From: Escherichia coli
GTDB taxonomy: Bacteria > Pseudomonadota > Gammaproteobacteria > Enterobacterales > Enterobacteriaceae
Length of the DNA: 64,000 nt
Assembly (NCBI RefSeq): GCF_044324875.1
Contig: NZ_CP172185.1
Strand: one strand, 5' to 3'
The number at the start of each line of letters is the position of its first letter. Positions within the stretch are counted from its first letter, which is position 1. Under the pieces are notes generated by a model, which saw only the letters and a program-made list of their open reading frames with translations, searched no databases and was not told the origin of the DNA. Positions 3,210-9,893 of this stretch are shown here, piece after piece. Made by a program: the position numbers and the translations under genes.

Positions 3210-3413
3210 TTAGTAATTCACCTGGGATGGACCATCGCCAGTGGCGCGGTCGTTTTTATCCGGCACTGTGGATTGCGTTTGCGTCTCTACCGGTTTGGTC
3301 GGCGGTGGTGCGTTTTTATCTGCAGGCGGGAAATAGAGCGGACCTTTCAGACCGCAGCCCGTCAGGCTGAAGAGAGTAAGTAATACAGTGAGTGCCTTAA
3401 ACACGTTTTTCAT
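3210..3413 (-). CDS. yifL: Small lipoprotein YifL (LptM)
   Basis: 67-aa ORF with lipobox LTGC and Pro-rich tail; immediately upstream of dapF as in E. coli. Confidence 0.9.
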   Translation of the reverse strand: MKNVFKALTVLLTLFSLTGCGLKGPLYFPPADKNAPPPTKPVETQTQSTVPDKNDRATGDGPSQVNY

Positions 3414-3490
3414 TATGGATTGCCTGTAAAGTTCATCGCTTTCTGCTTTCTATCATCGCAGGAGAAGGCGTAAAAGCAAGCGTTTAGCGA

Positions 3491-3670
3491 CTCTTTATGA
3501 AGTCTGAAAAGTGAGGAAATGCTGCGAGTATAACGCTTACACGTGGCGATTTATGTTTTGCTGGTAGTTTCGTGATCAACACCTCGTGCCAGGATGGCTT
3601 TATGCACTATCGCAATGTGGTTTGTTTGTTGTCTTGTTCGTTGTTTTTATCGTCGGCATGGGGCTTTTAA
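3491..3670 (+). repeat. Copy 1 of conserved 5' leader module of the islet paralogs (decayed)
   Basis: About 175 bp alignable by eye to 4579-4760 and in part to 7455-7565; contains AGGA RBS and ATG. Confidence 0.7.
3602..3670 (+). pseudogene. Truncated signal-peptide remnant of an islet paralog
   Basis: 22-codon frame MHYRNVVCLLSCSLFLSSAWGF-stop; same signal peptide as the ORFs at 4688 and 7498 but the Cys after AWG is replaced by Phe and followed by TAA. Confidence 0.5.
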
Positions 3671-3761
3671 AAGAGTGGCGCACCATGCAATTTCGTTGTC
3701 TGACCTTAGTCGCCAGTGACATACAGCTTTGCCAACCTGGTGATAAGAGGGAAAAAATCTG

Positions 3762-4316
3762 ATGGGGCTATTTACCCAACTGGAAAAATTTGACCAAAAG
3801 CTTACGCGCGGTTATGCCCGCTGGGGGCGCTGGGTATGGCGGACGTTAATTGTCGTTCCAATACTGGTCGTATTGTGGAATATAGGGCAGGCAGTATGGG
3901 GAGGACCAAGAGGTGGAGTGATTCTGGAAATCCACAGTGAAATTGACCGCCCGATACTGGGATTCAGTGTTAACGGCGTGGCGGGCGCGAATGCTTTTGC
4001 GAATGGTGGCGGTTCAATCACCTGTTGCGGTGATGTCAGTGGGGATACGGCAGAGGTTATCTGGACATTAAGTACTACTCGTACACAGTATAATGCTGGA
4101 ATGCGTCTGGAGAAACGCAATATGACGTTACCTCTCCCAAAAAGAGAATGGGGAGAAAATTATCTGCACGTGCATTTTATGCCTGGCGATAAAGTGTTGC
4201 TGGGGTGGAGTAAAGATTCTTTTTCTCCGTATGAAGATCTTCACAACGGGGGGTACAAGACCCGCGTTCGGCAGGATGTGAAAGATAAACTTTATGGCAC
4301 AGGAAAAATGAATTGA
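3762..4316 (+). CDS. Hypothetical membrane-anchored protein (184 aa)
   Basis: ORF with purine-rich RBS upstream; N-terminal hydrophobic segment TLIVVPILVVLWNIGQAVW; Gly-rich region and CC dipeptide; no recognised family. Confidence 0.55.
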   Translation: MGLFTQLEKFDQKLTRGYARWGRWVWRTLIVVPILVVLWNIGQAVWGGPRGGVILEIHSEIDRPILGFSVNGVAGANAFANGGGSITCCGDVSGDTAEVIWTLSTTRTQYNAGMRLEKRNMTLPLPKREWGENYLHVHFMPGDKVLLGWSKDSFSPYEDLHNGGYKTRVRQDVKDKLYGTGKMN

Positions 4317-4578
4317 TAGATTTCTATAAAAATCACGTTCGGCAGAAAGCGTAATAATGTGGCGAATGTTAGATACCCGTGGTGGAACCTGGGTACAACT
4401 CGTGAAAGACAATAAAGAAGGCAACGGGGGGCGGAATCCCACCTTGCCTCCCTTCCAGGGGTCAATCCGGAATATTTTTATGCTATTAGCCGTACTATGG
4501 GGCAGTTCCGGGATTGTATTTATATCGTGAATGAAAACATCACCTTTATTCCAGCAACTATCAGAAAATAGCGATGAC

Positions 4579-4760
4579 CTTTATGGATTCTGAAAAGTGA
4601 CGATTTGCTGCGAGAGTTACGCTTACTTGTGAGGATTTATGTTCTGCTGGTAGTTTCGTGATCGGCACCTCACGCCAGGATGGCTTTATGCACTTTCGCA
4701 ATGTGGTTTGTTTGTTGTCTTGTTCGTTGTTCTTATCGCCTGCCTGGGGATGTAAGCTTT
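4579..4760 (+). repeat. Copy 2 of conserved 5' leader module
   Basis: Near-identical to 3491-3670; spans upstream leader, RBS and signal-peptide codons of the ORF starting at 4688. Confidence 0.7.
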
Positions 4761-6130
4761 CATCTGTGGATCCCAATGAGTATCAGCAACAGGGAAAAGG
4801 CGTGGTGTACCTGCGCCCTAATCAAAACACCAATCTTTCGCTACCGAACGTGAATTACAAGCGCCTGCGTCGGTTGGCGAATTTGTTAATTGACCCAGCG
4901 ACACTGGAAGATTGGGAGGAAATACCGCCGTTAACCGATCTGTCTACTGATTATGATGTGAGGGGCGCAAATGCCTGGTATCCTCATTACTCCTGGCATA
5001 GCGATGGTCGCTATATTATTTACGCTGGCAAGATAGTGCAAAATCCTGCGGGTGCACCGCCGGTTGACGTCACGTCATTCAAGGCTTGGGGCGATTTTGC
5101 CGCTGATAAAAATAGCCTCTATTTCAGAGGCGAACGCACGGATGACAATGGTGGTGACAAGCCTTTAGATAGCAAAACACTGCATCAGATGAATTTACCG
5201 CCGCCATGGGAACCTGACGTCCTCGGGCTGATATTGCGTGATGCTAACTTCCTGTATATCAACGGGCATCGTATTGCTGAGACCAATAGTTTCCGCGTGC
5301 TGGCGCAAAAGTCCTGGGATAAGCACGGAAAATTTTCCATGAAGTTTAGCTGCATTCGCAAACCATTCGGCCCCTGGGATACGCTGGCTCGTACACAGAC
5401 GAAGATTATGCTCAACGGCGAACAACTGGATGCCGACCCGGATACCTTCACCGTTGTGCGCTGGATACCTGAAGCATTAATAAGCTGGCGAGATAAAAAC
5501 GGCTTTCACCGAAAGGTACTGGATCAATATGCCCTGGACAGCAATGAGGAATATAGCTGCGGTAGTTTCAATGTAAAGGAACACCGCGTCACCTGGCGTA
5601 GTAGCTTCCCGGGTAAGGGAGCAGAATGCCAACAAGAAGAGATTCCCGGCCTCGATCCTGAACAGTTTCACCCAATTAGCGATGCTGTCGCGCAATATCA
5701 GGACAAGCTGTACGTCATCGAAACAACGCCATTTGACGAGCTCAAGCTGAATATTGTTACGCTTGATGACCCGAAACTGATTATTAATAAGCGCTTCAAC
5801 GCCGGGAAGCGTCACGGTTACTTGCTCACAAGAAAGGGAGACGAGTTTGGGGATTCTGGTTTACAGGTGTTTGAATCCGCCGGGCCGCTCATTTTATTTG
5901 ATAACCACATCCCCAGCGAACGGGAAGCGCATCAGGTTAGCAGCAACCCTTATATCCAAAAATGGTTAGCCCGCGACGACAAATATGTTTATCGCTTCGA
6001 TGGCATGCAGCTCTGGCGCTATCACACCGCAGATCCCCGAGCCGTGCGCGTCGTGAACGATCAACTCGATGACAAAATTAACGGTGATGGCGAGTTTATA
6101 CCCACTCCGCGCGATGAGGCTAAAAAATGA
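4688..6130 (+). CDS. Secreted or lipoprotein-like repeat protein, paralog 1 (DKNYY-like repeats)
   Basis: Track ORF 4658-6130 (GTG); the conserved ATG at 4688 with AGGA RBS is preferred; signal peptide MHFRNVVCLLSCSLFLSPAWG-C; repeated units with D-x-x-[ST]-F and D-[KDN]-x-[YL]-[VL]-Y motifs. Confidence 0.75.
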   Translation: MHFRNVVCLLSCSLFLSPAWGCKLSSVDPNEYQQQGKGVVYLRPNQNTNLSLPNVNYKRLRRLANLLIDPATLEDWEEIPPLTDLSTDYDVRGANAWYPHYSWHSDGRYIIYAGKIVQNPAGAPPVDVTSFKAWGDFAADKNSLYFRGERTDDNGGDKPLDSKTLHQMNLPPPWEPDVLGLILRDANFLYINGHRIAETNSFRVLAQKSWDKHGKFSMKFSCIRKPFGPWDTLARTQTKIMLNGEQLDADPDTFTVVRWIPEALISWRDKNGFHRKVLDQYALDSNEEYSCGSFNVKEHRVTWRSSFPGKGAECQQEEIPGLDPEQFHPISDAVAQYQDKLYVIETTPFDELKLNIVTLDDPKLIINKRFNAGKRHGYLLTRKGDEFGDSGLQVFESAGPLILFDNHIPSEREAHQVSSNPYIQKWLARDDKYVYRFDGMQLWRYHTADPRAVRVVNDQLDDKINGDGEFIPTPRDEAKK

Positions 6131-7437
6131 AAGTGATGAAAAAAAGTATCTCACTGGCGCTCATCCTGTTGGGGTACACGGTGGCAATTCCGGCCGTCCA
6201 GGCTGAAGGGTACGAATACTACTCTAACCAGGGAGCCCTGGTTTACGGTTCAAACTTCGGGGGACAAAAGAAAATCATTGCCAAGTTTACGGGAATTAAC
6301 AGACGCGATTTGTACCCTGTGGAAAATATCTCTGGCGAGCAGGAACGATATATTATCGAAGATGAAGTCACCACAATTAAAGAGGAGTACCACTGGATAA
6401 CGGACGGTCACGTCATTCTCTGGCGAGGGAAAATCGTGAGTAATCCTCCCGGTACGCCAATGGTCGATGTTGCCAGCTTTAAGGCTCTGGGCCGCTTCGC
6501 CGTCGATAAATACAGTCTCTATTTTGACGGTCAGCGCACCGAAAGCAATAGCGGTGCTTCGAAGGTGGACCTGGCAACCCTAAAAGCTATCGAAGATAAC
6601 AGCAGCACGCTGGTTGACCGACATAACCTTTATTTATTGGGACGCAGGCAGGCCAGTAGCGACGATTTCAGCGTACTACAAAGTAAATTGTGGGGGGATA
6701 TCGAGCGGTTCCGCCCACGCAATGAAGGGGCTACCTCCCGCGACCTGCTTATTCGTCATCGCCAGGATGTGTTTCTCAATGGTCAGCGCATTGCAGACGT
6801 TGATGCTGACACCTTTCACATCATTCGATGGATCCCCAATTCATTATTGGTCTACCGCGACAAACATGGTGAGCACCGTTACGCCTATGGCAACCCGGCC
6901 GGAAAAATGGCAACGACCGATGATGCGAATTCGTTTGAAATCGGTGAAAAAACCGTCCGCTGGCGCAGGCAACTCGCGCGGGATGACGCCTGGCCCACGC
7001 AACTCTCGTGGGATGTCATATGGGGGGCCTGGCAGGATATTCCCAATGTTGATCCGGAACAGTTCCATCTGATCACTGACCGCATCGCGCAGTATCAGGA
7101 TCGTCTGTATATCATCAAACTGTCGCCAGTTGGCGAAGACCAGCTTAACGTTATCACCCTGGATACCCCTGATTTAGTGGTTGATCACGTCTTCAATGGT
7201 GGGAAAAAGCACATTTATATTATCAAGGACAGAGCGTGGGTGCAGGATGTTCATGTGATTGCTACCCACGGTCCACTCACCATGGCTGAGAGTTTCGCCT
7301 GGGACGATCGCTATGTATATGCCTGGCGGGGCCAGCGACCTTCCAGAACTGAATCGCCATGTCCGGAGCAAACCGTTGAGCAGGATGATGGCATAGTCAT
7401 TAAGACCGAAGCATCAGAGTGCCACCGCACGCCGTAA
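6127..7437 (+). CDS. Secreted repeat protein, paralog 2 (DKNYY-like repeats)
   Basis: 436-aa ORF; start ATG overlaps the stop of the upstream paralog (ATGA); classical Sec signal MKVMKKSISLALILLGYTVAIPAVQA; repeat motifs VDVASF, DKYSLYF, DDRYVY; Cys-containing C-terminal tail. Confidence 0.75.
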   Translation: MKVMKKSISLALILLGYTVAIPAVQAEGYEYYSNQGALVYGSNFGGQKKIIAKFTGINRRDLYPVENISGEQERYIIEDEVTTIKEEYHWITDGHVILWRGKIVSNPPGTPMVDVASFKALGRFAVDKYSLYFDGQRTESNSGASKVDLATLKAIEDNSSTLVDRHNLYLLGRRQASSDDFSVLQSKLWGDIERFRPRNEGATSRDLLIRHRQDVFLNGQRIADVDADTFHIIRWIPNSLLVYRDKHGEHRYAYGNPAGKMATTDDANSFEIGEKTVRWRRQLARDDAWPTQLSWDVIWGAWQDIPNVDPEQFHLITDRIAQYQDRLYIIKLSPVGEDQLNVITLDTPDLVVDHVFNGGKKHIYIIKDRAWVQDVHVIATHGPLTMAESFAWDDRYVYAWRGQRPSRTESPCPEQTVEQDDGIVIKTEASECHRTP

Positions 7438-7454
7438 AATGGGTCATTATTTTT

Positions 7455-7565
7455 AACGGGTAGTTTCATGATCAACACCTCGCGCCAGGATGGCTTTATG
7501 CACTATCGCAATGTGGTTTGTTTGTTGTCTTGTTCATTGTTTTTATCGTCGGCATGGGGATGTCG
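7455..7565 (+). repeat. Copy 3 of conserved 5' leader module
   Basis: About 110 bp matching the 3' part of copies 1 and 2 (RBS plus signal-peptide codons). Confidence 0.7.
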
Positions 7566-9525
7566 GCTTTCCGCGCCTGAACATAATATTTACCAGAAAC
7601 AGGGAAAAGGCGTGGTATACCTGCGCCCTTATAAAGAAACAAATCTTTCTCTTCCTGACGTGAATTACAAAAGTTTGCGCCGTTTACCCAATTTATTAAT
7701 AGACCCGACAACACTAGACGAATGGGATAAAGAACCGCCTCTGACTGATTTGACAACCGACTACCTCTATGAGGGCGCACAGGCCTGGTATCCTCATTAT
7801 TCCTGGCATAGCGATGGTCGCAATATCCTCTACGCGGGTGAAGTTGTGCAAAACCCTCCCGGCACACCTCCCGTCGATGTCGCCTCGTTCAAGGCATGGG
7901 GTGATTTTGCCGCAGATAAACACAGTCTCTATTTTGAAGGCAAGCGCACCGATGACAATGGCGGAGAAAATAGTCTAGATATCAAAACGCTGCATCAGGT
8001 GAAATTCCGTTCCCCCTGGAAACCTGACTTACTGGGGCTGATATTACGTGACGCTAATTTCTTGTATATCAATGGGCATCGCCTCGCTGACCCCGAGAGT
8101 TTCCGTGTGCTGGCGCAAAAGTCCTGGGATCGGCGAGGAAAGTTTTCCGCCGAGTTTAACCCCTGCGTTGCCGTACCATTTGGCCCCTGGGATACGTTAG
8201 CCCGTACACGGACCAAAATCATAATCAATGGCGAACAGCTTACAGCCGACCCAGAGACATTTACTGTCGTGCGCTGGATGCCCAGTTCGTTATTAACCTG
8301 GCGTGATAAAAACGGGCTGCAGCGTAAAGTGCTGAATCAGGGAAATCTGGACAAAGATAGGGCAAATAGCTGTGCAACGTTCAATTTACAGGAACACTTT
8401 GTTTCATGGCGCAAAGGGCCAGAATGTCAGCAAGAAGTCCTACCCGGCCTCGATCCAGAACAATTTCACCCTCTTAGTAATACCGTTGCTCAGTATCAGG
8501 ACAAGCTGTACACCATCAAAAAAACGGAATTTGGCGAAAATAGGCTAGATATCGTCACACTGGATAATCCTGGTTTGGTGATAGATAAACGCTTTAACGC
8601 GGGAAGAACTCACGGCTATTTATTGACCAAATTACCAGCTGATGGTGAAGAAGAAGATGGCCTCCAGGTATTCGAGTCTTCCGGGCCGCTTATCCTGATG
8701 GATTATCGTGTTCCTGACGAGCATGAGGCTCACCTTAGCGATAGCCCCCATTACAAGAAATGGTATGCACACGACGATCGTTATGTTTACGCATTCGATG
8801 GCTCACAGCTTTGGCGCTACCCAACTCCCAATACCAAAGCCGTGCGGGTGAAATGGAAAACCAAAGATTCAGGATATGGCTATTGGGCAAACTACCGTAG
8901 TGGTGAGCTTGACGGCAGACTTCTTGAGGATGGTGCGTTTATTCCAACGGGAATCCCCTATAACTCATCCGTTAACATTGCTCAATATTCTGATGGCGAA
9001 GGCTCTTTTCTCGTCGGCGAAACCGATGTTAGCTGGCGTAAGCTTCGCTCTACAGACCAGCAATGGAGTCAATGGGAGAAACTCCCCGATATTGACCCGA
9101 AAGCATTTCATCCCATCACCGATCGTGTCGCGCAGTACAAAAATCATCTGTACATTGCGAAATTGTCTCCTTTTGGTGAAGACACCCTGGAGATAATAAC
9201 GCTCGACTCTTCTGCACCTTTCCTGAAACAACGAATTAACGCCGGGAAAGGCCATGGTTACTTTATGCGCTCTTCCCGTTTACGCGATGATATTCAAATT
9301 TTTGCTATTGATGGACCATTGAAAACCACCGAACGTTTCGCTTATGACAATCGCTATGTTTATACCTGGATCGGTAGCCAACTTTATCGAACCGCATCGC
9401 CCTGTCCGGCCAGGACACGTAATCTGGATCAGAACATGTTTTCATCCAATGATGACATCATCATCCTGAAGACGGAGGAAGAGTGCCACAAAACACCAGA
9501 CATTGAGCAAACTTTGAAGCCCTGA
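7498..9525 (+). CDS. Secreted or lipoprotein-like repeat protein, paralog 3 (long mosaic form)
   Basis: Track ORF 7468-9525; conserved ATG at 7498; N-terminal two thirds closely similar to paralog 1 at DNA level; C-terminal third resembles the C-terminus of paralog 2 including the SPCP...ECH[KR]TP tail. Confidence 0.75.
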   Translation: MHYRNVVCLLSCSLFLSSAWGCRLSAPEHNIYQKQGKGVVYLRPYKETNLSLPDVNYKSLRRLPNLLIDPTTLDEWDKEPPLTDLTTDYLYEGAQAWYPHYSWHSDGRNILYAGEVVQNPPGTPPVDVASFKAWGDFAADKHSLYFEGKRTDDNGGENSLDIKTLHQVKFRSPWKPDLLGLILRDANFLYINGHRLADPESFRVLAQKSWDRRGKFSAEFNPCVAVPFGPWDTLARTRTKIIINGEQLTADPETFTVVRWMPSSLLTWRDKNGLQRKVLNQGNLDKDRANSCATFNLQEHFVSWRKGPECQQEVLPGLDPEQFHPLSNTVAQYQDKLYTIKKTEFGENRLDIVTLDNPGLVIDKRFNAGRTHGYLLTKLPADGEEEDGLQVFESSGPLILMDYRVPDEHEAHLSDSPHYKKWYAHDDRYVYAFDGSQLWRYPTPNTKAVRVKWKTKDSGYGYWANYRSGELDGRLLEDGAFIPTGIPYNSSVNIAQYSDGEGSFLVGETDVSWRKLRSTDQQWSQWEKLPDIDPKAFHPITDRVAQYKNHLYIAKLSPFGEDTLEIITLDSSAPFLKQRINAGKGHGYFMRSSRLRDDIQIFAIDGPLKTTERFAYDNRYVYTWIGSQLYRTASPCPARTRNLDQNMFSSNDDIIILKTEEECHKTPDIEQTLKP

Positions 9526-9572
9526 CCCCATGCCGCTATACTGCCGCCATCACTTAAAAACAGGATACAACA

Positions 9573-9893
9573 ATGAACGACAGTGAATTTCATCGCCTGG
9601 CTGATCAACTGTGGCTGACCATTGAAGAGCGTCTGGACGACTGGGATGGCGATAGCGATATCGACTGCGAAATCAACGGCGGTGTACTGACCATTACCTT
9701 TGAAAACGGGAGCAAAATCATTATCAACCGTCAGGAACCGCTGCACCAGGTGTGGCTGGCAACCAAACAGGGCGGCTACCATTTTGATATGAAAGGCGAT
9801 GAGTGGATTTGCGATCGTAGCGGCGAAACCTTCTGGGATTTGCTGGAACAGGCGGCGACGCAGCAGGCGGGTGAAACAGTCAGTTTCCGCTAA
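9573..9893 (+). CDS. cyaY: Frataxin homolog CyaY
   Basis: 106-aa translation matches remembered E. coli CyaY ([14 protein letters not shown]...). Confidence 0.95.

What the first reader, a model, noticed from the sequence alone, without database searches (positions are those of the whole stretch)
7354..7434. Conserved Cys-containing C-terminal tail shared by two paralogs
Paralog 2 ends SPCPEQTVEQDDGIVIKTEASECHRTP, and paralog 3 carries SPCPARTRNLDQNMFSSNDDIIILKTEEECHKTP near its C-terminus (about 9397-9498). The shared pattern is SPCP-x(n)-I-x-KTE-x(1-2)-ECH[RK]TP. A conserved Cys pair in exported proteins suggests a disulfide-stabilised tail, a sorting signal or a metal site.
Basis: seen in the sequence. 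Interest (0 to 1): 0.4.

Follow-up and report, generated by a model that had tools for sequence, protein, structure and literature searches.

The report
Cysteine-stapled tail of DKNYY proteins
The cysteine-containing tail shared by two neighbouring E. coli genes is real, and is most likely an ordinary structural disulfide that pins the last beta-hairpin of a small, uncharacterised family of exported proteins, not a sorting signal or a metal site.

Summary
Window 7354-7434 and 9397-9498 translate exactly as quoted. The two tails are homologous (0 of 20,000 shuffles reach their score) and end a 181-aa module that is 42% identical between the paralogs.

The window is E. coli, 99.9% identical to strain 042. 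The genes lie in a four-gene island between lptM and cyaY: one DUF3304 gene and three DKNYY-family paralogs. Only 29-52 of 5,426 complete genomes carry the full island.

Among homologs from Escherichia, Salmonella, Citrobacter, Klebsiella, Atlantibacter and Pseudocitrobacter, 28 of 30 distinct tails with the first Cys-Pro also keep exactly one downstream Cys (C-x19-27-C, 1-12 residues from the C-terminus). The His, the KTE and the residues after the second Cys vary. Mature paralog 2 has only these two cysteines.

AlphaFold2 places the tail as a short beta-ladder plus a one-turn helix; pLDDT is 81-90 in paralog 3 and about 60-80 in paralog 2.

Best reading: an intramolecular disulfide staple on the last hairpin, made in the periplasm. 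This is inferred; the S-S distance could not be measured. A metal site or sorting signal is not supported.

Paralog 1 and the internal module of paralog 3 carry a Cys-less tail at the same position. The family's function remains unknown. Ordinary finding, low interest.

The parts
6127..7437 (+). Paralog 2: a 436-aa exported DKNYY-family protein. It has a Sec-type signal peptide (residues 1-26, cleavage motif VQA|E).
   Evidence: ORF. Pfam PF13644 at 36.3 bits against a cut-off of 25. RefSeq WP_000867004.1 'DKNYY domain-containing protein'. AF2 gives an all-beta model, pLDDT 78.
7354..7434 (+). The finding: the C-terminal tail of paralog 2, SPCPEQTVEQDDGIVIKTEASECHRTP. Cys412 is at 7360-7362 and Cys432 at 7420-7422. 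These are the only two Cys of the mature protein.
   Evidence: AF2 predicts a hairpin, strands 416-419 and 422-425, with pLDDT 79 falling to 56.
7498..9525 (+). Paralog 3: 675 aa from the RefSeq start (the ORF opens at 7468). It has two modules: a paralog-1-like part, then an extra paralog-2-like C-terminal module.
   Evidence: It is 68% identical over its full length to the Salmonella 670-aa protein, so the two-module form is old.
8959..9522 (+). The C-terminal module of paralog 3 (188 aa), modelled on its own.
9397..9498 (+). The Cys tail of paralog 3, SPCPARTRNLDQNMFSSNDDIIILKTEEECHKTP. Cys636 is at 9403-9405 and Cys663 at 9484-9486. Eight variable residues follow (9499-9522).
   Evidence: AF2 pLDDT is 81-90 through the second Cys and 50 after it.
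8773..8949 (+). Internal Cys-less tail that ends module 1 of paralog 3: DDRYVYAFDGSQLWRYPTPNTKAVRV...EDGAFIPT.
4688..6130 (+). Paralog 1: 480 aa from the RefSeq start. Its signal peptide ends A-W-G-C. Its stop overlaps the paralog 2 start (ATGA at 6127-6130).
   Evidence: Pfam DKNYY at 25.0 bits, exactly at the cut-off.
5975..6127 (+). Cys-less tail of paralog 1: DDKYVYRFDGMQLWRYHTADPRAVRVVNDQLDDKINGDGEFIPTPRDEAKK. It shares the invariant Pro, but has Asp where paralogs 2 and 3 have the first Cys.
   Evidence: On its own it is not significantly similar to the paralog 2 tail.
3762..4316 (+). First gene of the island: a 184-aa DUF3304-like protein with an N-terminal hydrophobic segment.
   Evidence: Pfam PF11745 at 21.6 bits against a cut-off of 22. 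NCBIfam Tli1a at 19.4 bits against 110. RefSeq names it 'DUF3304 domain-containing protein'.

Best explanation
The tail is the last structural element of a paralog-2-type terminal module in an Enterobacterial branch of the DKNYY family of exported beta-repeat proteins. The chain leaves the last conserved strands (DDRYVY-x-W ... QLYR), passes an invariant Pro, forms a short hairpin or beta-ladder whose loop length varies, and comes back. A Cys directly before the invariant Pro, and a Cys 1-12 residues from the C-terminus, are then joined by an intramolecular disulfide in the oxidising periplasm. Because they are consecutive cysteines, this would be a simple DsbA-type substrate. The bond staples the otherwise loose chain end to the body of the module, which would give stability and protease resistance.

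Shown: the motif, its conservation, the export signals, the Cys counts, and the predicted local fold.

Inferred: that the two thiols are actually bonded, and that the benefit is stability.

The function of the proteins is unknown.
For: (1) Co-conservation. Of 30 distinct tails selected only for having Cys-Pro at the invariant Pro, 28 have exactly one further Cys, spaced C-x19-27-C. One has Cys->Tyr and one is a truncated fragment. These come from Escherichia, Salmonella, Citrobacter, Klebsiella, Atlantibacter and Pseudocitrobacter, at 35-87% identity to paralog 2.

(2) Everything else in the tail drifts. The residue after Cys2 is H, R, Q, L, K, D, I or A. The loop between the Cys varies by 8 residues. 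The terminal extension is 1-12 residues.

(3) Mature paralog 2 and its closest relatives (P0003-P0007) have exactly two Cys, both in the tail. 17 of 19 soluble family members have even Cys counts. Exported proteins of bacteria that have DsbA are known to be biased towards even cysteine counts; this is stated from background knowledge and was not checked here.

(4) Export. Paralog 2 starts MKVMKK, then a hydrophobic core, then VQA|E. Paralogs 1 and 3 have signal peptides ending A-W-G-C.

(5) AF2. In the paralog 3 module, pLDDT is 81-90 from Cys1 through Cys2 and falls to 50 straight after it. The structure there is a beta-bridge (residues 154-155 with 167-168) and a one-turn helix that carries Cys2. 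In paralog 2 there is a hairpin at 416-419 and 422-425.

(6) Independent Cys pairs occur within the tails of Cys-less-type members: P0070 has ...PEKAC...GWPCGNYN, linking the start of the tail to the chain end, and P0046/P0048 have HCPSGKKQC close together near the C-terminus. The family also has two other recurrent Cys-pair positions. Disulfide staples are therefore a habit of this fold.
Against: - There is no direct evidence of the bond. The structure tool returns no coordinates, so the Cys-Cys distance in the models is unknown.
- pLDDT of the paralog 2 tail is only 56-79.
- All Cys-tail sequences form one clade, so the gain of the pair is a single evolutionary event. Its retention could partly be inheritance.
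- One cluster (P0024, 11 member sequences) has Tyr in place of Cys2, and P0002 and P0028 carry a third Cys nearby.
- Cys-less relatives fold without the staple, so it is not essential to the fold.
Confidence: 0.65

Rival explanations
1. The two cysteines, with the neighbouring His, form a metal-binding site (Cu, Zn or Fe) at the C-terminus.
For: The window's two paralogs both read E-C-H-[RK]-T-P, and Cys-Pro resembles CPx-type motifs.
Against: The His is present in only 5 of 30 distinct tails (3 of 15 after removing near-duplicates). It is replaced by Arg in close alleles of paralog 3 (P0132, P0134) and by R, Q, L, K, D, I or A elsewhere. No other potential ligand is conserved. Two thiols 20-28 residues apart in an oxidising compartment are expected to oxidise.
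Confidence: 0.05
2. The tail is a C-terminal sorting, secretion or anchoring signal recognised by a dedicated machinery.
For: It always sits at the extreme C-terminus of the protein, with the second Cys 1-12 residues from the end.
Against: - The residues after Cys2 vary in length and sequence. There is no hydrophobic helix, basic tail or fixed terminal residue.
- Cys-less paralogs with the same N-terminal signals sit in the same operons.
- No sorting-enzyme gene accompanies the loci in E. coli, Salmonella, Klebsiella or Leminorella.
- There are no hits to any curated family beyond DKNYY.
Confidence: 0.03
3. The cysteines act between molecules or in redox chemistry. For example, they could form a disulfide with the co-transcribed paralog 1-type partner, or a thiol-disulfide exchange site.
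For: The paralog-1-type and paralog-2-type genes form a conserved, translationally coupled pair: ATGA overlap in the window, and the same gene pairing in L002, L008 and L010. Paralog-1-type proteins have a Cys whose partner is uncertain.
Against: Paralog 2 has an even count (two), so an intermolecular bond would leave a free thiol. The spacing is not CxxC-like. The Salmonella and CT30-type loci have the Cys tail in a single fused protein with no separate partner.
Confidence: 0.1
4. The pair has no specific role. The cysteines are retained by descent in a young clade and may be free or buried.
For: All Cys tails belong to one clade. A C->Y variant exists (P0024). The Cys-less tails show the fold does not need the pair.
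Against: Within that clade the tail is otherwise the most variable part of the module, yet both Cys and the Pro are invariant in 15 of 15 tails left after merging those 70% or more identical. That set was selected for having both Cys; the unbiased count is 28 of 30. Free thiols are uncommon in periplasmic proteins.
Confidence: 0.12

Closest known systems
Pfam PF13644, DKNYY family (uncharacterised beta-repeat proteins)
   Same: All three paralogs reach the Pfam gathering score: 36.3, 27.7 and 25.0 bits against 25. RefSeq names paralog 2 and its E. coli relatives DKNYY proteins. Distant relatives (P0061, P0062, P0067) continue after the equivalent of the tail into canonical ADPxTF...DKNxVYY repeats.
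   Different: The Enterobacterial branch is divergent and small: 88 representatives at 50% identity among 1.84 billion proteins. The Pfam match does not cover the tail. A profile built from 13 canonical repeats gives no signal on the tails, with scores near 0. The Cys-stapled tail is described nowhere; only one paper in the library mentions DKNYY at all.
Structural disulfides between consecutive cysteines in periplasmic proteins (DsbA substrates)
   Same: Exported protein, two consecutive Cys 20-28 residues apart, an even Cys count, and conservation of the pair with drift around it.
   Different: The bond has not been demonstrated here. This is a general class, not a homologous family.
C-terminal sorting signals (PEP-CTERM, GlyGly-CTERM, LPXTG, type IX CTD)
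   Same: Location at the extreme C-terminus only.
   Different: There is no conserved terminal motif, no transmembrane helix, no basic tail and no cognate sorting enzyme nearby. The end varies from 1 to 12 residues.
DUF3304 / Tli1-type type VI immunity lipoproteins (concerns the neighbouring gene, not the tail)
   Same: The first gene of the island gives weak DUF3304 and Tli1a hits. DUF3304 is discussed in the literature as the immunity protein of the Tle1 phospholipase effector (titles and abstracts only).
   Different: Scores are below both curated cut-offs (21.6 against 22, and 19.4 against 110). No type VI or effector gene is in the locus in any genome examined.

Membership tests
Pfam PF13644 DKNYY | Whole-protein score at or above the curated gathering cut-off (25 bits). 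| tested here: met
   Paralog 2 scores 36.3 bits, paralog 3 scores 27.7 and paralog 1 scores 25.0, exactly at the cut-off.
Pfam PF13644 DKNYY | The tail itself is a (degenerate) DKNYY repeat. | tested here: inconclusive
   By eye, S-x-C-P-x-x-T lines up with A-D-P-x-T-F, and the Pro is invariant across the family. However, a profile of 13 canonical repeats scores the tails at about 0 bits.
Sec-exported periplasmic protein | N-terminal signal peptide: basic n-region, hydrophobic core, and small residues at -3 and -1. | tested here: met
   Read from the sequence: MKVMKK, then SISLALILLGYTVAIPA, then VQA|E. This is conserved in homologs. AF2 gives a low-confidence helix at residues 2-18. No dedicated signal-peptide predictor was available.
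Structural intramolecular disulfide | Both Cys are conserved together across homologs. | tested here: met
   28 of 30 distinct CP-tails keep exactly one downstream Cys. One has C->Y and one is a truncated fragment.
Structural intramolecular disulfide | Even number of Cys in the mature exported protein. | tested here: met
   Paralog 2 has 2. 17 of 19 soluble family members have even counts.
Structural intramolecular disulfide | The two S-gamma atoms are within bonding distance in a structure, or the bond is detected chemically. | not testable with these tools
   Structure prediction returns only pLDDT and secondary structure. No solved relative exists.
Cys/His metal site | At least three conserved ligand residues. 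| tested here: not met
   Only the two Cys are conserved. The His is present in 5 of 30 tails.
C-terminal sorting signal | A conserved terminal motif with a hydrophobic or basic end, and a cognate sorting enzyme. | tested here: not met
   The 1-12 residues after Cys2 are variable. No such gene lies in five loci from four genera.
Bacterial lipoprotein (paralogs 1 and 3) | A lipobox [LVI][ASTVI][GAS]C at the end of the signal peptide. | tested here: inconclusive
   The sequence is A-W-G-C, with an atypical Ala at -3 and Trp at -2. It equally fits an A-x-G signal peptidase I site. The Cys-count parity favours a disulfide-bonded +1 Cys.
NCBIfam NF053804 Tli1a immunity protein (the neighbouring gene at 3762-4316) | Score at or above the curated cut-off (110 bits). 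| tested here: not met
   19.4 bits.

The most novel reading that the evidence does not exclude
The tandem array of exported DKNYY paralogs with a DUF3304 (Tli-like) gene sits next to lptM in Escherichia, Salmonella and Klebsiella, and is deleted to a scar in most E. coli. It could be a polymorphic periplasmic immunity or decoy island against contact-dependent (for example type VI) effectors. On that reading, the Cys-stapled terminal module would be the protease-resistant binding unit that is shuffled between paralogs. Nothing here excludes this, but nothing beyond the weak DUF3304 hit and the array-like, patchy distribution supports it.
Probability: 0.08. Interest if true: 0.5.

Novelty: new member of a known kind. 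Interest (0 to 1): 0.17.

Why it matters
The finding matters little on its own. It is a subfamily-specific structural disulfide in proteins of unknown function.

Its practical uses are these:
- It gives a clean diagnostic motif, S-x-C-P-x2-[TSA]-x(12-22)-hydrophobic run-x(2-4)-C close to the C-terminus, for the paralog-2-type terminal module.
- It predicts that these proteins are DsbA-dependent periplasmic proteins.
- It helps define domain boundaries for anyone who wants to express or solve a first structure of the Enterobacterial DKNYY branch, which has no solved relative.

The surrounding locus is a mildly interesting example of a variable gene array. It is intact in about a quarter of E. 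coli genomes and reduced to a scar in K-12. It offers natural knock-outs for testing what the family does.

Tried and rejected
(1) Tail as a degenerate DKNYY repeat. I built a profile from 13 canonical repeats of distant relatives. The tails scored about 0 bits, so this stays a visual resemblance only.

(2) Paralog 1 tail homologous to the paralog 2 tail on its own. The local score is 20, and 5,491 of 20,000 shuffles reach it. Homology rests only on position after the invariant Pro, not on tail sequence.

(4) Defence or immunity assignment. There were no PADLOC hits. NCBIfam gave nothing for the three paralogs. No type VI genes lie in any locus examined.

(5) A full-length paralog 3 alignment for AF2. 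MAFFT split the single-module homologs across both modules, so I modelled the C-terminal module alone instead.

(6) A second large homolog search with the module profile returned only 8 fragments. It added two paralog 3 alleles with His->Arg but no new diversity.

(7) Promoter and terminator scans of the island were at background level.

(8) Literature. DKNYY appears in one unrelated paper. yzcX appears only in gene lists.

Full report
WHAT IS THERE

The window is E. coli chromosome. Region 3400-9600 is 99.9% identical to strain 042 and a few dozen other genomes. Four + strand genes lie between lptM (yifL, 3210-3413, minus strand) and cyaY (9573-9893):
- a DUF3304-like gene (3762-4316);
- paralog 1 (4688-6130, 480 aa from the RefSeq start);
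- paralog 2 (6127-7437, 436 aa);
- paralog 3 (7498-9525, 675 aa).

All three paralogs reach the Pfam DKNYY gathering score, with 25.0, 36.3 and 27.7 bits against a cut-off of 25. NCBIfam and PADLOC have nothing for them.

Paralog 3 is a two-module protein. Residues 1-494 are 66% identical to paralog 1. Residues 508-677 are 42% identical to the C-terminal 173 residues of paralog 2 (coordinates counted from the longer ORF). The Salmonella 670-aa homolog has the same architecture at 68% identity, so the fusion is old.

CHECKING THE OBSERVATION

Their similarity is not chance: the local score is 69 against 18.6 +/- 4.0 for shuffles, and 0 of 20,000 shuffles reach it. They are also the ends of a much longer significant alignment (E = 2e-43). 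The real unit of homology is the whole ~180-residue terminal module, of which the tail is the last ~30-60 residues.

A search of 5.8 billion clustered proteins with paralog 2 found 48 relatives. An exhaustive profile search of 1.84 billion representatives found only 88, of which 31 had E <= 1e-30. This is a small, mostly Enterobacterial family.

I took every distinct C-terminal tail that follows the last conserved DDRYVY strand. There are 55, and they split into two kinds.

- Cys tails. Thirty have Cys-Pro at a Pro that is invariant in the 18-sequence family alignment (P413 of paralog 2). Of these 30, 28 have exactly one further Cys, 19-27 residues downstream and 1-12 residues from the C-terminus. 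One cluster has Tyr instead (P0024). One is a truncated fragment (P0125).
- Cys-less tails. The other 25 have no Cys at either position. They include paralog 1 and its orthologs; the internal end of module 1 of paralog 3 is of the same kind. They typically read R-Y-x-T-x-x-P-x-x-[AV]-x-[VI] ... L-x-T-x-E-G-x-Y ... G-x-F-x-P.

The residue after the second Cys is His in only 5 of 30 tails. It is Arg in close alleles of paralog 3. 'KTE' is replaced by TQA, PVT, LPD, LVD and others. The loop between the cysteines varies by eight residues. The conserved core is S-x-C-P-x-x-[TSA], a run of three or four hydrophobic residues, and the second Cys.

WHY A DISULFIDE IS THE BEST READING

- Paralog 2 starts with a typical Sec signal peptide: MKVMKK, a hydrophobic core, then VQA|E.
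- Its mature form contains exactly two cysteines, C412 and C432, both in the tail.
- Among soluble family members, 17 of 19 have even Cys counts. That is the pattern expected for exported proteins in a DsbA-containing organism. This expectation is background knowledge and was not tested here.
- AlphaFold2 on paralog 2 (18-sequence alignment, pLDDT 78) gives an all-beta protein. The tail forms a hairpin, strands 416-419 and 422-425, at modest confidence (pLDDT 79, then 63, then 56).
- AlphaFold2 on the isolated C-terminal module of paralog 3 (29-sequence alignment, pLDDT 84.8, pTM 0.76) places the whole Cys-to-Cys segment with pLDDT 81-90. It shows a short beta-bridge and a one-turn helix that carries the second Cys. 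Confidence collapses to 50 immediately after it. That is what one expects if the second Cys is the last anchored point.
- Other members have evolved different Cys pairs within the same tail: P0070 joins the start of the tail to the chain end, and P0046/P0048 carry a closely spaced pair near the C-terminus.
- The family has two further recurrent pair positions, described under 'Other things seen'.

None of this proves the bond. The tools return no coordinates, so the decisive distance could not be measured. All Cys tails form one clade, so the gain of the pair is a single evolutionary event.

REJECTED READINGS

- Metal site. It would need a conserved third ligand, and there is none.
- Sorting signal. 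It would need a conserved terminal element or a partner enzyme. The terminal residues are the most variable part, and five loci from four genera show only housekeeping neighbours.
- Intermolecular disulfide with the translationally coupled paralog-1-type partner. This cannot be excluded, but it fits the even Cys count poorly. It also fits poorly with loci where the tail sits in a single fused protein.

WHAT THE TAIL CORRESPONDS TO IN THE FOLD

By eye, S-x-C-P-x-x-T resembles the A-D-P-x-T-F element of canonical DKNYY repeats seen in distant relatives, with the first Cys in the place of the Asp. Paralog 1 actually reads T-A-D-P there. A profile of canonical repeats does not detect the tails, so I leave this as a lead.

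CONTEXT

The lptM-cyaY position is a variable locus. Among 5,426 complete E. coli genomes:
- 29-52 carry the three-paralog version found in this window;
- 165 carry the paralog 3 terminal module;
- 1,395 carry a two-gene version of 492 and 441 aa, whose second protein ends in a Cys tail;
- most of the rest, including K-12, keep only a scar. It joins the signal-peptide codons to the last ~22 codons of the Cys tail.

Arrays of one to four paralogs sit next to lptM in Salmonella and Klebsiella spallanzanii too. A pair sits elsewhere in Leminorella. The function of the family is unknown, and only one paper in the library mentions DKNYY. The weak DUF3304/Tli1-like neighbour and the array-like, patchy distribution allow an 'orphan immunity island' speculation. 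No effector or type VI gene supports it.

VERDICT

This is a real, conserved, subfamily-specific motif. It is most likely an ordinary structural disulfide staple on the C-terminal hairpin of a periplasmic beta-repeat protein (confidence about 0.65). It is a new member of a known kind, and of low interest.

Noticed in passing
window 4751 (p1 C22), 5351 (C222), 5558/5627 (C291/C314); 7561 (p3 C22), 8164 (C223), 8371/8425 (C292/C310): Every Cys of the three mature paralogs falls into one of three recurrent pair positions in the family. The first is a Cys right after the A-x-[AG] end of the signal peptide, together with a Cys about 170-200 residues later. The second is a mid-domain pair around F-x3-E-x2-V-x-W. 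The third is the tail pair. Distant members P0061, P0062, P0063, P0065 and P0067 have only the first pair. If the +1 Cys is lipidated, as the lipobox-like A-W-G-C suggests, its partner would be a free thiol. If signal peptidase I cuts A-W-G|C, all counts are even. Whether paralogs 1 and 3 are lipoproteins is therefore open.
   Followed up: partly
L012 (E. coli K-12 MG1655) 1510-1688; equivalent to window ~7468-7650 joined to ~9460-9525: In K-12 and most E. coli the locus is reduced to a frameshifted deletion scar. It joins the signal-peptide codons of the 492-aa gene to the last ~22 codons (RDIIIPVTDESCRNAAAEVQTLKP*) of the 441-aa gene's Cys tail. RefSeq calls it a DKNYY pseudogene. It is probably the K-12 gene listed as yzcX next to cyaY (PMC12288877, PMC7414163), but that identity was not verified.
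   Followed up: partly
window 3414-9572, and loci L002, L004, L006, L008, L013: The space between lptM and cyaY is a variable locus with at least five states in E. coli: a scar; DUF3304 with the 675-aa gene; 492 + 441 aa; DUF3304 with 492 + 441 aa; and DUF3304 with 480 + 436 + 675 aa. Paralog arrays also sit next to lptM in Salmonella and Klebsiella spallanzanii. The island's G+C is 0.44-0.52, against 0.53-0.58 in the flanks.
   Followed up: partly
window 6127-6130: The stop codon of paralog 1 and the start codon of paralog 2 overlap as ATGA, which suggests translational coupling. The same 4-nt overlap joins the 492- and 441-aa genes in L002 and two of the Klebsiella paralogs in L008.
   Followed up: partly
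window 3762-4316: The DUF3304-like protein has an N-terminal hydrophobic segment (WVWRTLIVVPILVVLWNIGQAVWG) rather than a lipobox. It scores just below the Pfam cut-off (21.6 against 22) and far below the Tli1a cut-off (19.4 against 110). It is present in only some versions of the locus.
   Followed up: no
L006 9992-10381 (Salmonella): In Salmonella the 670-aa two-module gene is followed, with a 22-nt overlap, by a 129-aa hydrophobic protein (weak DUF3021 hit). This protein has no counterpart in the E. coli window.
   Followed up: no
window 6614-7072 (+2 frame inside paralog 2): Several database 'proteins' (P0008, P0010, P0032, P0037) start as paralog 2 and end in the out-of-frame ORF that the ORF listing shows at 6614-7072. 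These are frameshifted alleles or assembly errors in some strains, i.e. decay of paralog 2.
   Followed up: no
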